From: Escherichia coli
GTDB taxonomy: Bacteria > Pseudomonadota > Gammaproteobacteria > Enterobacterales > Enterobacteriaceae
Length of the DNA: 64,000 nucleotides
Assembly (NCBI RefSeq): GCF_050920415.1
Contig: NZ_CP169309.1
Direction: 5' to 3' (one strand)
Position 1 is the first letter of the stretch. Each line of letters starts with the position of its first letter. The notes under the pieces are model-generated. The model was given only the letters and a program-made list of their open reading frames with translations, was not told the DNA's origin and did no database searches. Below, one piece after another: positions 23,554-57,600 of this stretch. The translations under genes and the position numbers were made by a program.

Positions 23554-23719
23554 TGTTTAATCCTTTTGGTTTAAACCAGATGAGGCATCTTACGCTTACG
23601 CCAAAAAAGAAAGCAATTAACAGCGTATGACTTTGCAGATAATTGTGACAAAGCTCTCTATTGACGTAACCACAAACTTATAAGGGAGATACTCGCACTG
23701 GTGAGAACTTACGACAGGC

Positions 23720-23752
23720 AAAAAAAAACCTGCCATCGCTGGCAGGTTTTTT
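23720..23752 (-). terminator. Rho-independent terminator downstream of typA (bidirectional hairpin)
   Basis: A-run, hairpin cctgccatcgctggcagg, T-run. Confidence 0.8.
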
Positions 23753-23769
23753 ATGACTAAAAAACGAAA

Positions 23770-25593
23770 TTAATCGTCTTTCGGTGCGCGGTTGGCGCGA
23801 CGACGATCGTTTTCCGTCAGGTGACGTTTACGAATACGGATAGAGGTCGGAGTCACTTCTACCAGTTCGTCATCATCGATGAACTCCAGAGCTTGTTCCA
23901 GCGTCATGCGGATAGGCGGAACCAGAACAACGGCTTCGTCAGTACCGGAAGCACGCATGTTGGTCAGTTTCTTACCGGTCAGGCAGTTTACAGTCAGGTC
24001 GTTAGAACGGCTGTGAATACCGATAATCTGACCTTCGTAAACTTCTGCACCGTGACCGAGGAACAGCTTACCACGGTCCTGCAGACCGAACAGCGCGAAC
24101 GCTACCGCTTTACCCTGACCGTTAGAGATCAGTACGCCGTTCTGACGCTGACCCACTTCACCCGGACGTACGTCGTCGTAGTGGCTGAAGGTGGAGTACA
24201 ACAGACCCGTACCAGAGGTCATGGTCATGAACTCAGAACGGAAGCCAATCAGACCACGGCTTGGGATCACGTAGTCGAGACGTACGCGGCCTTTACCGTC
24301 TGGATTCATGTTTTTCAGGTCGCCTTTTCGTTCGCCAAGCGCCTGCATCACAGAACCCTGATGCTGTTCTTCAACGTCCAGAGTCACGTTTTCATACGGC
24401 TCTTGTTTACGACCGTCAATTTCACGGAAGATAACTTTCGGACGGGATACCGCCAGTTCGAAACCTTCACGACGCATGTTTTCGATCAGAACAGACAGGT
24501 GCAGTTCGCCACGACCAGAAACGCGGAACGCATCGGCGTCTTCAGTTTCTTCTACGCGCAGCGCAACGTTGTGTACCAGTTCTTTGTTCAGACGATCCAG
24601 GATCTGACGAGACGTTACGAACTTACCTTCTTTACCGCAGAACGGCGAGGTGTTAACGCAGAAGAACATAGAAACGGTCGGCTCATCAACGGAGAGTGCC
24701 GGCAGCGCTTCAACGTTTTGCGTGTCGCAAACGGTGTCAGAAATGTTCAGTTCGCCCAGGCCCGTGATCGCCACGATATCGCCAGCTTCCGCCAGATCGG
24801 TTTCGATACGTTCCAGACCGAGGTGGCCCAGCACTTTACCGACTTTCGCGTTGCGGGTTTTGCCTTCGCTATCGATGATAGTAACTTGCTGGTTCGGCTT
24901 CACTTTACCGCGCTTGATGCGGCCAATGCCGATAACGCCAACATAGCTGTTGTAATCGAGCTGAGAAATCTGCATCTGGAACGGACCGTCAAGGTCAACG
25001 TCCGGCGCAGGAACGTGGTCAACAATTGCCTGATACAGCGGGGTCATGTCTTCCGCCATATCTTCGTGGTCCAGACCCGCGATACCGTTCAGCGCAGAAG
25101 CGTAAACGATCGGGAAGTCCAGCTGCTCGTCAGTCGCGTCGAGGTTAACGAACAGGTCGAATACCTGATCCACAACCCAGTCAGGACGCGCGCCAGGGCG
25201 GTCAACTTTGTTGATAACAACAATTGGCTTCAGGCCGTAAGCAAACGCTTTTTTGGTTACGAAGCGCGTTTGCGGCATCGGGCCGTCAAATGCGTCAACC
25301 ACCAGCAGCACTGAGTCTACCATGGACATTACACGTTCAACTTCACCACCGAAGTCGGCGTGCCCCGGGGTATCAACGATGTTGATACGGTAATCATTCC
25401 ATTTGATAGCGGTGTTTTTCGCGAGGATGGTAATCCCACGCTCTTTCTCCAAATCGTTGGAGTCCATCACGCGCTCTTGGGTTTCGGCACGAGAGTCGAA
25501 CGTACCGGATTGTTGGAGCAGCTTGTCTACCAGGGTGGTTTTACCATGGTCTACGTGCGCGATGATGGCGATATTACGCAATTTTTCGATCAC
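23770..25593 (-). CDS. typA: Ribosome-dependent translational GTPase TypA/BipA
   Basis: 607 aa; G1 motif [17 protein letters not shown]. Confidence 0.95.
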
Positions 25594-25744
25594 AACTTTG
25601 CCTCAGGCATTAGAAATAGCGCGTTATTGTACACGGATTAATCGCACTACAAAACAGGATCACAAACATCCTCCGCAAACAAGTATTGCAGAGTCCCTTT
25701 GTGATCGCTTTCACGGAGCATAAAAAGGGTTATCCAAAGGTCAT

Positions 25745-25882
25745 TGCACCAATATGGTGCTTAATGTTTCCATTGAAGCACTATATTGGTGCAACATTCA
25801 CATCGTGGTGCAGCCCTTTTGCACGATGGTGCGCATGATAACGCCTTTTAGGGGCAATTTAAAAGTTGGCACAGTTTTCGCT
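25745..25882 (+). promoter_or_regulatory. glnA regulatory region: NtrC enhancer sites and sigma-54 promoter glnAp2
   Basis: TGCACCA-N3-TGGTGC type palindromes at 25745-25761 and 25779-25794; sigma-54 -24/-12 element TTGGCACAGTTTTCGCT at 25866-25882. Confidence 0.85.
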
Positions 25883-25965: not shown

Positions 25966-27375
25966 ATGTCCGCTGAACACGTACTGACGATGCTGAACGA
26001 GCACGAAGTGAAGTTTGTTGATTTGCGCTTCACCGATACCAAAGGTAAAGAACAGCACGTCACTATCCCTGCTCATCAGGTGAATGCTGAATTCTTCGAA
26101 GAAGGCAAAATGTTTGACGGCTCCTCGATTGGCGGCTGGAAAGGCATTAACGAATCCGACATGGTGCTGATGCCAGACGCATCCACCGCAGTGATTGACC
26201 CGTTCTTCGCCGATTCTACCCTGATTATCCGTTGCGACATCCTTGAACCTGGCACCCTGCAAGGCTATGACCGTGACCCGCGTTCCATCGCGAAGCGCGC
26301 TGAAGATTACCTGCGTTCTACGGGCATTGCCGACACCGTACTGTTCGGGCCAGAACCTGAATTCTTCCTGTTCGATGACATCCGTTTCGGCGCGTCTATC
26401 TCCGGTTCTCATGTTGCCATCGACGATATCGAAGGTGCATGGAACTCCTCCACCAAATATGAAGGTGGTAACAAAGGTCACCGTCCGGCAGTGAAAGGCG
26501 GTTACTTCCCGGTTCCGCCGGTAGACTCTGCTCAGGATATCCGTTCTGAAATGTGTCTGGTGATGGAACAGATGGGTCTGGTTGTTGAAGCCCATCACCA
26601 CGAAGTTGCAACCGCTGGTCAGAACGAAGTGGCAACCCGCTTCAATACCATGACCAAAAAAGCTGACGAAATTCAGATCTACAAATATGTTGTGCACAAC
26701 GTGGCGCACCGCTTCGGTAAAACCGCGACCTTTATGCCAAAACCGATGTTCGGTGATAACGGCTCCGGTATGCACTGCCACATGTCACTGTCTAAAAACG
26801 GCGTCAACCTGTTCGCGGGCGACAAATATGCAGGTCTGTCTGAGCAGGCGTTGTACTACATTGGCGGCGTAATCAAACACGCTAAAGCAATTAACGCCCT
26901 GGCAAACCCGACCACCAACTCTTACAAGCGTCTGGTCCCGGGCTACGAAGCACCGGTAATGCTGGCTTACTCTGCGCGCAACCGTTCTGCGTCTATCCGT
27001 ATTCCAGTGGTTTCTTCTCCGAAAGCACGTCGTATCGAAGTCCGTTTCCCGGACCCAGCGGCTAACCCGTACCTGTGCTTTGCTGCCCTGCTGATGGCCG
27101 GTCTTGATGGTATCAAGAACAAGATCCACCCAGGCGAAGCCATGGACAAAAACCTGTATGACCTGCCGCCAGAAGAAGCGAAAGAGATCCCACAGGTTGC
27201 AGGCTCTCTGGAAGAAGCACTGAACGAACTGGATCTGGACCGCGAGTTCCTGAAAGCCGGTGGCGTGTTCACTGACGAAGCCATTGATGCGTACATCGCC
27301 CTGCGTCGCGAAGAAAATGACCGCGTGCGTATGACTCCGCATCCGGTAGAGTTTGAGCTGTACTACAGCGTCTAA
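25966..27375 (+). CDS. glnA: Glutamine synthetase
   Basis: 469 aa, [28 protein letters not shown]. Confidence 0.97.
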
Positions 27376-27462
27376 TAGTTGAAGTTGTACTACCCGGTGC
27401 TAAGAAGGCCGGGATTTAGTTGCCGTGGAAACTTTCAGCCCATCTCTGCATGGGCTTTTTTC
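27376..27462 (+). ncRNA. glnA 3'UTR with terminator; candidate 3'UTR-derived sRNA (GlnZ-like)
   Basis: Hairpin agccca...tgggct at 27437-27456 followed by TTTTTT; assignment as sRNA is by analogy to reported glnA 3'UTR sRNAs, exact 5' end unknown. Confidence 0.4.
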
Positions 27463-27549
27463 TCCGTCAATTCTCTGATGCTTCGCGCTTTTTATCCGTA
27501 AAAAGCTATAATGCACTAAAATGGTGCAACCTGTTCAGGAGACTGCTTT

Positions 27550-30255: not shown

Positions 30256-30367
<112 letters not shown>

Positions 30368-32549: not shown

Positions 32550-32616
32550 AATGGTTCGTCTTTTAGCCGTTTTATTCAGTATAGATTTGCGGCGGAATCT
32601 AACAGAAAGCAAGCAA

Positions 32617-32860
32617 AGAAAAAAGGCGACAGATTACTCTGTCGCCTTTTTTCCTGACTCATAACCCTTAACGGGTCTTACAATCCTTGCAGGCCGCCAA
32701 CACACCCTGTTTTTCCATTAGCCGGAACAATCCGTGTTGATTCCATTTCCGTTTAATTACGTCTCCGGACGTTTGTCTTCCTGACAATCCTCTGTCTTCG
32801 CCTCCTGGCGCTCCTGACCCTCATCCTGAGTCATTGTTCCTGTTAGCGTCCTCGCTCTAT
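32617..32860 (-). ncRNA. csrC: CsrC small RNA (CsrA-sequestering)
   Basis: About 244 nt with many GGA motifs on the minus strand; 5' end ATAGAGCGAGGACGCTAACAGG and terminal hairpin GGCGACAGAGTAATCTGTCGCC + U-run match recalled CsrC; location in the engB-yihI intergenic region. Confidence 0.85.
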
Positions 32861-33886: not shown

Positions 33887-33997
33887 AATAAAAAACGCCC
33901 CAGTCATTACTGACTGGGGCGGCTAAAATATTCAGCCAAATCCGATTACGTGAAGTAAAAGGTCTGAAAGATAGAACATCTTACCTCTGTACCCTAC
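33887..33997 (-). ncRNA. spf: Spot 42 small RNA
   Basis: Minus-strand sequence GTAGGGTACAGAGGTAAGATGTTCTATCTTTCAGACC...GACTGGGGCGTTTTTTATT matches recalled Spot 42 including terminator; located downstream of polA. Confidence 0.93.
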
Positions 33998-34144
33998 GCG
34001 ACTAACTTTACTCTTTTTTGTTCAGTTCAGAAAGCATTTTTTGTAATTTTTTTTCAGTTGTTGCATAGGAATTTCTAATAGCCATCACAAAACGTGACAG
34101 CTTATGTTGCTTACTTACGAAAAAAGGGCATGTTCAGGCGAATC

Positions 34145-43092: not shown

Positions 43093-43212
43093 ATGCCTGG
43101 CAGTTCCCTACTCTCGCATGGGGAGACCCCACACTACCATCGGCGCTACGGCGTTTCACTTCTGAGTTCGGCATGGGGTCAGGTGGGACCACCGCGCTAA
43201 GGCCGCCAGGCA
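43093..43212 (-). rRNA. rrfA: 5S ribosomal RNA
   Basis: Reverse complement TGCCTGGCGGCC...GGGAACTGCCAGGCAT, 120 nt. Confidence 0.97.
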
Positions 43213-43315
43213 AATTCTGTTTCATCAGACCGCTTCTGCGTTCTGATTTAATCTGTATCAGGCTGAAAATCTTCTCTCAATCCGCCAAAACATCTTCGGC
43301 GTTGTAAGGTTAAGC

Positions 43316-46208
<2,893 letters not shown>

Positions 46209-46391
46209 TCACAACCCGAAGATGTTTCTTTCGATTCATCATCGTGTTGCGAAAATTTGAGAGACTCACGAACAACTTTCGTTGTTCAGTGTTTCAATTT
46301 TCAGCTTGATCCAGATTTTTAAAGAGCAAAACTTCGCAGTGAACCTTTGCAGGTACACTCTGAAGTATTTTTTATTTAATCACTACAGAGA

Positions 46392-46467
46392 TGGTGGAGC
46401 TATGCGGGATCGAACCGCAGACCTCCTGCGTGCAAAGCAGGCGCTCTCCCAGCTGAGCTATAGCCCC
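46392..46467 (-). tRNA. alaT: tRNA-Ala (UGC), rRNA spacer tRNA
   Basis: Reverse complement GGGGCTATAGCTCAGCTGGGAGAGCGCCTGCTTTGCACGCAGGAGGTCTGCGGTTCGATCCCGCATAGCTCCACCA. Confidence 0.97.
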
Positions 46468-46509
46468 ATAACATGTAGTTAAAACCTCTTCAAATTTGCG
46501 GTGCAAATT

Positions 46510-46585
46510 TGGTAGGCCTGAGTGGACTTGAACCACCGACCTCACCCTTATCAGGGGTGCGCTTAACCACCTGAGCTACAAGCCT
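46510..46585 (-). tRNA. ileT: tRNA-Ile (GAU), rRNA spacer tRNA
   Basis: Reverse complement AGGCTTGTAGCTCAGGTGGTTA...CCCTGATAAGGGTGAGGTCGGTGGTTCAAGTCCACTCAGGCCTACCA. Confidence 0.95.
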
Positions 46586-46653
46586 GTAGAGGTTTTACTG
46601 CTCATTTTCATCAGACAATCTGTGTGAGCACTGCAAAGCACAGTTCTTTAAGG

Positions 46654-48190
<1,537 letters not shown>

Positions 48191-56115: not shown

Positions 56116-57600
<1,485 letters not shown>

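What the first reader, a model, noticed from the sequence alone, without database searches (positions are those of the whole stretch)
27376..27462. glnA 3'UTR with strong terminator, candidate 3'UTR-derived sRNA
About 85 nt between the glnA stop and a strong intrinsic terminator (27437-27462), followed by the glnL promoter region. glnA 3'UTR-derived sRNAs (GlnZ) have been reported in enterobacteria; the segment here has the expected position, but I cannot define the processed 5' end or seed from sequence alone.
Basis: inference. Interest (0 to 1): 0.3.

Follow-up and report, generated by a model that had tools for sequence, protein, structure and literature searches.

The report
Known GlnZ sRNA, short form

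Summary
The window is E. coli (typA-glnALG-hemN). Bases 27376-27461 are the whole glnA 3'UTR. It has a GC hairpin (27393-27413), a single-stranded AUUUAG (27414-27419), the published GlnZ seed UUGCCGUGGAAA (27420-27431) and an intrinsic terminator (stem 27437-27456, T-run to 27461).

Apart from four changes at the tip of the first hairpin, it matches the 85-nt glnA 3'UTR of O157:H7 86-24 and Nissle 1917. That RNA was characterised experimentally as O157-type / class I GlnZ and as EsrF (PMC9731577; bioRxiv 10.1101/2022.04.01.486790; PMC8092317).

The seed is complementary to the sucA leader (around -43) and the glnP leader (around -21) of O157:H7 genomes. In a scan of reference genomes, 93 of 120 matches to the seed-plus-terminator-start pattern lay just downstream of glnA in Enterobacterales, and 92 of those 93 had the terminator.

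Rfam has no GlnZ family. Its Yersinia family Ysr49 appears to be the orthologue, and the window scores below its threshold.

This is already known. The only local peculiarity is a rare hairpin-tip allele, found in about 13-16 of 5,426 complete genomes, which leaves predicted seed accessibility unchanged. Interest is low.

The parts
25966..27375 (+). glnA (glutamine synthetase, 469 aa), the parental mRNA of the sRNA
   Evidence: ORF list. RefSeq annotation of matching E. coli records as glnA.
25867..25882 (+). sigma-54 type promoter motif TGGCAC-N5-TCGCT (glnAp2), with NtrC-type palindromes upstream (e.g. 25746-25760). Presumed to drive nitrogen-limitation expression of glnA and hence of the sRNA.
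   Evidence: Read directly from the sequence. The palindrome GCACCAATATGGTGC is listed. Assignment to glnAp2 rests on established knowledge of the E. coli glnA promoter and was not tested here.
27376..27461 (+). Complete glnA 3'UTR = GlnZ, short form (O157-type / class I; synonym EsrF). It is 86 nt in this allele, against 85 nt in O157:H7.
   Evidence: Alignment to O157:H7 86-24 and Nissle 1917. Published length and ends are in PMC8092317 and PMC9731577.
27393..27413 (+). Hairpin 1: 6-bp stem CCCGGU/GCCGGG with a 9-nt loop. It carries the four allele-specific changes (27398 T, 27401 extra T, 27404 G, 27407 G).
   Evidence: Folding and alignment. Predicted stability is -10.6 kcal/mol against -13.8 for the O157 hairpin.
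27414..27419 (+). Single-stranded AUUUAG just 5' of the seed. By analogy it is a candidate internal RNase E site that would give a ~47-nt short form, and a U-rich Hfq contact.
   Evidence: Inference only. K-12 GlnZ194 starts at UUUUAGUUGCC (annotation, alignment). Salmonella has a ~50-nt RNase E product, GlnZ2, that is sufficient for regulation (PMC9731577). In other species this position is a U-run.
27420..27431 (+). Seed UUGCCGUGGAAA
   Evidence: Exact and unique match in the window. Identical to the published seed (PMC9731577). Predicted mostly unpaired, mean P(unpaired) 0.61. Complementary to the sucA and glnP leaders.
27437..27461 (+). Rho-independent terminator: AGCCCAU-CUCUGC-AUGGGCU plus U-run. 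It forms the 3' end of glnA mRNA and of GlnZ, and is the presumed Hfq-binding 3' module.
   Evidence: Terminator scan. Invariant in all E. coli 3'UTR types aligned. Present in 92 of 93 glnA-linked loci of other genera.
27507..27529 (+). TATAAT followed by the NtrC-type palindrome TGCACTAAAATGGTGCA, 21 nt upstream of the glnL ATG (27550). This is the glnL promoter/operator region and is not part of the sRNA.
   Evidence: Read from the sequence. Invariant in the five E. coli sequences aligned. The functional assignment comes from established knowledge.

Best explanation
[quoted passage not shown] The proposed mechanism runs as follows.

1. Under nitrogen limitation, NtrC activates the sigma-54 glnA promoter.
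2. The glnA transcript ends at the terminator (27437-27461).
3. RNase E cuts near the stop codon, and probably again in AUUUAG, which releases the 86-nt RNA and possibly a ~47-nt form.
4. The seed UUGCCGUGGAAA (27420-27431) pairs with the leaders of sucA, glnP and aceE and represses them.
5. This keeps 2-oxoglutarate for glutamate/glutamine synthesis and lowers glutamine import.

What is shown here: the anatomy, near-identity to the characterised RNA, complementarity to two targets, and conservation of the module downstream of glnA.

What is taken from the literature on O157 strains: the existence of the transcript, its induction by low nitrogen, its dependence on Hfq, and repression of glnP, sucA and aceE by the EHEC O157:H7 form expressed in K-12. 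RNase E release was demonstrated for the K-12 and Salmonella forms.

What is inferred: that this rare hairpin-tip allele behaves the same way, and where any internal cleavage site lies.
For: - Position: the segment lies immediately after the glnA stop, on the same strand, and ends at an intrinsic terminator.
- Seed: there is one exact match to the published seed in the window.
- Identity: 81 of the 85 O157:H7 / Nissle positions are identical and there is one inserted T. All differences are in the hairpin-1 apex, and the seed, AUUUAG and terminator are identical.
- Other E. coli types: the K-12 and O111-type 3'UTRs share the seed (one C shorter in O111) and the terminator, but differ by insertions, exactly as published (PMC9731577). 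MG1655 carries an annotated ncRNA glnZ, b4836, at the same locus.
- sucA: there is an 8-nt exact complement (10 bp with one G-U) at -43 of sucA in an O157:H7 86-24 derivative.
- glnP: there is a 10-bp complement with one G-U at about -21 of glnP in O157:H7 F3113.
- Accessibility: the seed is predicted mostly unpaired, equally so in both alleles.
- Conservation: of 120 genome loci matching GCCGTGGAAACTTT-N1-4-GCCC, 93 lie 10-171 nt downstream of a glnA stop on the same strand. All of these are Enterobacterales by record title, except one record titled Martelella alba. 92 of the 93 have the terminator and 91 of 92 have GTT before the motif. The 27 unlinked hits are in unrelated phyla and lack a terminator, except two that are cut at a contig end.
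- Experiments in the literature: PMC9731577 (northern blots in O157; chromosomal replacement of the K-12 3'UTR by the O157 type), bioRxiv 10.1101/2022.04.01.486790 (class I; EHEC RNA induced by low nitrogen; represses glnP, sucA and aceE) and PMC8092317 (85 nt by RACE; lost in an hfq mutant).
Against: - No expression data exist for this window's strain or allele.
- The duplex-energy tests are weak. 70 of 500 shuffles for sucA and 54 of 500 for glnP bind as well or better, so the in-silico target support rests on the short exact complements and on published compensatory mutations.
- The target sequences came from O157:H7 genomes, not from the genome of the window.
- The conservation scan was conditioned on the seed motif. 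It shows linkage to glnA, not how often glnA 3'UTRs lack the seed.
- One paper (PMC8092317) reports a different biogenesis and regulation for the same RNA.
Confidence: 0.93

Rival explanations
1. EsrF model. The same 85/86-nt RNA is a primary transcript made from its own sigma-70 promoter inside the end of glnA. It is repressed by NtrC and so is highest at high ammonium. It activates flhB, and through it motility and virulence, by pairing through GGGAUUUAG with the flhB leader and relieving Rho termination (PMC8092317).
For: - The RNA and its ends are the same object (PMC8092317).
- The proposed flhB-pairing stretch CGGGAUUUAG is present at 27410-27419. It is the reverse complement of CUAAAUCCCG in the flhB string quoted in that paper.
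- That paper reports TEX resistance and expression without the glnA promoter.
Against: - No sigma-70-like promoter is found on the + strand upstream of 27376. By eye, the best -10 candidates (TACTAC, TACAGC) match 3 of 6.
- Two independent groups found the O157 RNA induced by nitrogen limitation, not by high ammonium, and explicitly disagree with that report (PMC9731577; bioRxiv 10.1101/2022.04.01.486790).
- Part of the proposed flhB-pairing stretch lies in the 3' arm of hairpin 1.
- flhB activation could still be an extra target without changing what the RNA is.
Confidence: 0.05
2. A passive 3'UTR. The segment only terminates and stabilises glnA mRNA and sets the glnA:glnLG ratio, with no role in trans.
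For: - A terminator is clearly there.
- Deleting the terminator in K-12 slightly lowers GlnA (PMC9731577), so the cis role is real.
Against: - A cis-only terminator does not explain why the 17-nt GUUGCCGUGGAAACUUU is kept next to the terminator across Enterobacterales, while the rest of the 3'UTR varies from 10 to 171 nt.
- It does not explain why K-12 keeps the seed even though a REP insertion separates it from the terminator.
- It does not explain the published compensatory-mutation experiments (PMC9731577).
Confidence: 0.02
3. A small protein. The 40-codon TTG ORF at 27379-27501 is translated.
For: The ORF is listed mechanically.
Against: - It starts with TTG and has no visible Shine-Dalgarno sequence.
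- It runs straight through the terminator hairpin and T-run.
- Insertions break the frame in the K-12 and O111 types, and a 1-nt indel separates this allele from O157:H7.
- No coding signal is needed to explain the conservation.
Confidence: 0.005

Closest known systems
GlnZ, O157-type (Miyakoshi et al., eLife 2022, PMC9731577) = class I GlnZ (Walling et al., bioRxiv 10.1101/2022.04.01.486790) = EsrF of EHEC O157:H7 (Jia et al., mBio 2021, PMC8092317)
   Same: Same locus, strand and ends. The seed, the AUUUAG and the terminator are identical, and the 5' 22 nt are identical. The architecture is the same: hairpin, then seed directly upstream of the terminator.
   Different: Four changes in the tip of hairpin 1 (27398 T for C, an extra T at 27401, 27404 and 27407 G for C). 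These make the RNA 86 nt rather than 85 nt and the stem one pair shorter with a G-U closing pair. Only about 13-16 of 5,426 complete E. coli genomes share the allele.
GlnZ of E. coli K-12 (glnZ, b4836, 194 nt; class III)
   Same: Same gene context, the same ~20-nt seed region UUUAGUUGCCGUGGAAACUUU and the same terminator.
   Different: In K-12 the seed sits right after the stop codon, and a structured insertion of over 100 nt containing a REP element separates it from the terminator. Here the seed is 5 nt upstream of the terminator stem and no REP element is present.
GlnZ O111-type (230-nt 3'UTR)
   Same: It is the O157-type backbone with the same hairpin 1, seed and terminator.
   Different: The O111 type has an insertion flanked by AGGTTCAAA repeats between hairpin 1 and the seed, and lacks one C after GGAAA (PMC9731577). 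The window has neither.
Rfam RF02766 Ysr49 (Yersinia sRNA 49)
   Same: In Y. pestis and Y. similis, Ysr49 starts right after the glnA stop, ends at the U-run and contains GUUGCCGUGGAAACUUU plus the same terminator. It appears to be the Yersinia orthologue.
   Different: Only the 3' ~45 nt align. The window scores 28.8 bits against a gathering score of 95. The Yersinia 5' part is unrelated.
Other 3'UTR-derived Hfq sRNAs released by RNase E (CpxQ, SdhX, NarS, SroC)
   Same: They share the principle: the sRNA shares the terminator of a coding mRNA and acts in the same pathway as the encoded protein (discussed in PMC9731577).
   Different: They have different parental genes, seeds and targets, and no sequence relationship.

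Membership tests
GlnZ | Lies in the 3'UTR of glnA, on the same strand, and ends at the glnA Rho-independent terminator | tested here: met
   glnA stop at 27373-27375. Terminator at 27437-27461.
GlnZ | Conserved seed 5'-UUGCCGUGGAAA-3' | tested here: met
   Exact and unique match at 27420-27431. The seed is as given in PMC9731577.
GlnZ | Conserved terminator sequence shared by all GlnZ types | tested here: met
   AGCCCATCTCTGCATGGGCTTTTTT is identical in the K-12, O111, O157:H7 and Nissle sequences and the window. GCCCAT...ATGGGC plus a T-run is present in 92 of 93 glnA-linked loci of other genera.
GlnZ | Sequence identity to an experimentally characterised member (O157-type, 85 nt) | tested here: met
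   81 of 85 positions are identical to O157:H7 86-24, with one inserted base. All differences are in the hairpin-1 apex.
GlnZ | Seed complementary to the leaders of sucA and glnP | tested here: met
   sucA: UCCACGGC at -43, extendable to 10 bp. glnP: CACCACGGUAAC around -21, 10 bp with one G-U. The targets were taken from O157:H7 genomes. The energy-versus-shuffle tests are weak (70/500 and 54/500).
GlnZ | Released from glnA mRNA by RNase E, stabilised by Hfq, and induced under nitrogen limitation through NtrC | not testable with these tools
   Literature only (PMC9731577; bioRxiv 10.1101/2022.04.01.486790). The sigma-54 motif and NtrC palindromes upstream of glnA are visible in the window.
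EsrF (as defined by Jia et al. 2021) | 85-nt RNA that starts at the T after the glnA stop and contains the GGGAUUUAG flhB-pairing motif | tested here: met
   T at 27376 and GGGATTTAG at 27411-27419.
EsrF (as defined by Jia et al. 2021) | Own promoter (-35/-10) inside the 3' end of glnA | tested here: inconclusive
   The simple sigma-70 scan finds nothing on the + strand upstream of 27376. A weak promoter cannot be excluded from sequence alone.
Rfam RF02766 Ysr49 | Score at or above the family's gathering threshold (95 bits) | tested here: not met
   28.8 bits, E = 0.0058. Only the seed-plus-terminator part aligns. Yersinia loci score 151-160 bits.

The most novel reading that the evidence does not exclude
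The rare hairpin-1 apex allele (27398-27407: four changes in 10 nt, a 9-nt loop GCUAAGAAG in place of CAACAA) might be more than neutral drift. For example, it might be a second lineage-specific pairing surface, or a change that alters processing or stability of the short GlnZ form. That would give this minor E. coli lineage a modified target set.
Probability: 0.04. Interest if true: 0.25.

Novelty: already known. Interest (0 to 1): 0.08.

Why it matters
It matters little as a discovery. GlnZ is a published sRNA that links nitrogen assimilation (glnA) to carbon flux (sucA, aceE) and glutamine uptake (glnP), and the short form found here has been studied in O157 strains.

The practical value is for annotation. 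In the 60 E. coli RefSeq records listed for the 86-nt query, nothing is annotated under the match. Rfam has no GlnZ family, and only the Yersinia-specific Ysr49 covers an orthologue. Pipelines will therefore miss this RNA, even though the seed-plus-terminator module is a simple and highly specific marker downstream of glnA across Enterobacterales.

Tried and rejected
- **Rfam at a permissive threshold and at gathering threshold over the whole window.** No GlnZ family exists, and there was only a sub-threshold Ysr49 hit.
- **Whole-RNA fold z-score.** The result, -0.74, is not significant. The RNA as a whole is no more structured than shuffles, which is normal for a short sRNA with an open seed. 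I did not use it as evidence.
- **Duplex energy of the seed region against the sucA and glnP leaders versus shuffles.** The result was not significant on its own (70/500 and 54/500). I kept only the exact-complement observation.
- **Lookup of the original EDL933 record NC_002655.** It is not in the collection, so I used O157:H7 86-24 instead.
- **An independent promoter for the RNA inside glnA.** No consensus match was found.
- **A 40-codon ORF through the region.** Rejected, because it crosses the terminator and is not conserved in frame between the 3'UTR types.

Full report
**What is there.** The window is Escherichia coli. The stretch 27300-27560 matches 5,425 of 5,426 complete E. coli genomes, between genes annotated glnA and glnL. 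The ORF map gives typA (minus strand), then glnA at 25966-27375, glnL from 27550, glnG, and hemN on the minus strand.

glnA ends with TAA at 27373-27375. Downstream the sequence reads UAGUUGAAGUUGUACUA, then a GC hairpin (CCCGGU / GCUAAGAAG / GCCGGG, 27393-27413), AUUUAG, UUGCCGUGGAAA (27420-27431), CUUUC, and a terminator hairpin AGCCCAU-CUCUGC-AUGGGCU (27437-27456) with a T-run to 27461.

The only correction is that 85-86 nt is the length of the whole 3'UTR including the terminator. The spacing from the stop codon to the terminator stem is 61 nt.

**Comparison with the described RNA.** Miyakoshi et al. (PMC9731577) sort E. coli glnA 3'UTRs into three types:
- a K-12 type of 197 nt;
- an O157 type of 85 nt;
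- an O111 type of 230 nt, which is the O157 type with an insertion.

All three carry the seed 5'-UUGCCGUGGAAA-3'. Walling et al. (bioRxiv 10.1101/2022.04.01.486790) call the short form class I. [quoted passage not shown] They equate it with EsrF of EHEC O157:H7. Jia et al. (PMC8092317) mapped EsrF by RACE as exactly 85 nt, from the T adjacent to the glnA stop codon to the terminator T-run.

The seed occurs exactly once in the window, at 27420-27431. Aligned with O157:H7 86-24 and Nissle 1917, the window is identical through the whole 3'UTR except at 27398 (T for C), 27401 (an extra T), 27404 and 27407 (G for C). All four changes lie in the tip of hairpin 1.

Aligned with K-12 and O111:H8 sequences, the same seed and terminator are seen with the published insertions. 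MG1655 carries an annotated ncRNA glnZ (b4836, 194 nt) at this locus.

Among 5,426 complete genomes, 2,857 have a full-length match to the short form. About 990 match only the seed-plus-terminator half, as the O111-type example does. The rest match too little to be reported, which is consistent with the K-12 type. These proportions are approximate.

**The local allele.** Only one genome, MFDS1022581, is identical over 27340-27500, and twelve more are at 98.1%. At most 16 genomes are 99% or more identical to the 86-nt segment. The hairpin-tip allele is therefore rare, at about 13-16 genomes.

The allele shortens the stem from 7 to 6 pairs, with a G-U closing pair, and enlarges the loop from 6 to 9 nt. 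Predicted stability falls from -13.8 to -10.6 kcal/mol. The predicted accessibility of the seed is unchanged, with mean unpaired probability 0.61 in both alleles. I see no reason to think it changes function, but this was not tested.

**Independent checks of function-related features.** I fetched the sdhB-sucA and glnH-glnP intergenic regions from O157:H7 genomes.
- The sucA leader has UCCACGGC at -43. This is an exact 8-nt complement of the seed core and extends to 10 bp with one G-U. Walling et al. place the sucA site close to the RBS.
- The glnP leader has CACCACGGUAAC around -21, giving 10 bp with one G-U. Both papers place the glnP site just upstream of the Shine-Dalgarno sequence.
- Energy comparisons with shuffled targets were not significant on their own (70/500 and 54/500). 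The weight lies with the published compensatory-mutation experiments.

**Conservation.** I scanned one genome per species for GCCGTGGAAACTTT-N1-4-GCCC.

In 93 of them the motif lies 10-171 nt (median 60) downstream of a glnA stop codon on the same strand. By record title these are Enterobacterales, including Citrobacter, Enterobacter, Klebsiella, Pantoea, Erwinia, Serratia, Yersinia, Dickeya, Edwardsiella and Plesiomonas; the one exception is a record titled Martelella alba. Of the 93, 92 continue into the GCCCAU...AUGGGC hairpin and a T-run. In 91 of 92 the motif is preceded by GUU, and it is usually preceded further upstream by a U-run.

The 27 unlinked matches are in unrelated phyla and lack a terminator, apart from two loci that are cut at a contig end. 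They are the chance background.

The module of U-rich stretch, GUUGCCGUGGAAACUUU and terminator is therefore fixed, while the spacer back to glnA is free. That is the pattern expected for a trans-acting seed on a 3'UTR-derived sRNA. Because the scan was conditioned on the seed, it shows linkage to glnA, not the frequency of glnA 3'UTRs without a seed.

**Databases.** No Rfam family reaches its gathering score over 27376-27461. At a permissive threshold the segment hits Ysr49 (RF02766) at 28.8 bits against a threshold of 95, through the seed and terminator only.

In Y. pestis and Y. similis, Ysr49 scores 151-160 bits. There it starts right after the glnA stop codon and ends at the U-run. Ysr49 therefore appears to be the Yersinia GlnZ orthologue under another name. 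In the 60 E. coli RefSeq records listed for the 86-nt query, no feature is annotated under the match.

**Mechanism and rivals.** The best explanation is the GlnZ model:
1. transcription from NtrC/sigma-54 glnAp2 under nitrogen limitation (the TGGCAC-N5-TCGCT motif at 25867-25882 and NtrC-type palindromes are visible);
2. termination at 27437-27461;
3. release by RNase E;
4. Hfq-dependent pairing of the seed with sucA, glnP and aceE.

The existence of the RNA, its induction and its targets are shown in the literature for the O157 allele. RNase E release was shown for the K-12 and Salmonella RNAs. Its extension to this allele, and a possible second cleavage in AUUUAG giving a ~47-nt form, are inferences by analogy with K-12 GlnZ194 (which starts at UUUUAGUUGCC) and Salmonella GlnZ2.

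The EsrF model describes the same RNA differently: an own promoter, NtrC repression, induction by high ammonium and activation of flhB. Its flhB-pairing stretch CGGGAUUUAG is present at 27410-27419. However, no promoter-like site precedes 27376, and two groups contradict the reported regulation.

A purely cis role as a terminator is real but does not explain the seed conservation. The 40-codon ORF through the region is an artefact of ORF listing.

**Verdict.** The feature is an already known sRNA in its already described short form, carrying a rare and probably neutral hairpin-tip allele. Interest is low.

Noticed in passing
window 25675-25782 (minus strand): Strong Rfam hit to ES222 sRNA (RF02755, 133 bits against a gathering score of 62) in the typA-glnA intergenic region. 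It lies upstream of typA on typA's strand, opposite the NtrC-site region of the glnA promoter.
   Followed up: no
L108 3863-3986 (Y. pestis) and L119 5303-5426 (Y. similis): Rfam family Ysr49 (RF02766) covers exactly the glnA 3'UTR of Yersinia, from the base after the stop codon to the U-run, and contains the GlnZ seed and terminator. It looks like the GlnZ orthologue filed under a species-specific name, while Rfam has no GlnZ family for E. coli or Salmonella.
   Followed up: partly
window 27398-27407: The hairpin-1 apex differs from the common O157-type allele by four changes within 10 nt (C>T, +T, C>G, C>G), while the remaining 76 nt are identical. Only about 13-16 of 5,426 complete E. coli genomes share this. 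The clustering suggests a single multi-base event or a recombination rather than independent point mutations.
   Followed up: partly
window 27468-27475: Just downstream of the terminator, the window reads GTCAATTCTC, like O157:H7 and Nissle. The other sampled carrier of the same hairpin allele (Z0117EC0005) reads GTAACTTCTT. Only one genome (MFDS1022581) combines both features as the window does.
   Followed up: no
L129 (NZ_SZPQ01000031.1, titled Martelella alba BGMRC 2031): This record carries an alphaproteobacterial name. It has an Enterobacterales-type glnA C-terminus (83% amino-acid identity) followed 19 nt later by the GlnZ seed and terminator, nearly identical to Acerihabitans arboris (L013). 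The name and the sequence do not agree.
   Followed up: no
window 27507-27529: TATAAT is followed immediately by the near-perfect NtrC-type palindrome TGCACTAAAATGGTGCA, 21 nt before the glnL ATG. It is invariant across the five E. coli sequences aligned. This fits the classical NtrC-repressed glnL promoter.
   Followed up: no
window 32607-32860, 33889-34007, 43095-48190, 23717-23785, 30279-30363, 57447-57517, 1010-1052 (all minus strand): Other Rfam matches at gathering score: CsrC, Spot 42, a complete rRNA operon with two tRNAs and StyR-44, STnc370 at the 3' end of typA, two naRNA4 copies, and ES036.
   Followed up: no
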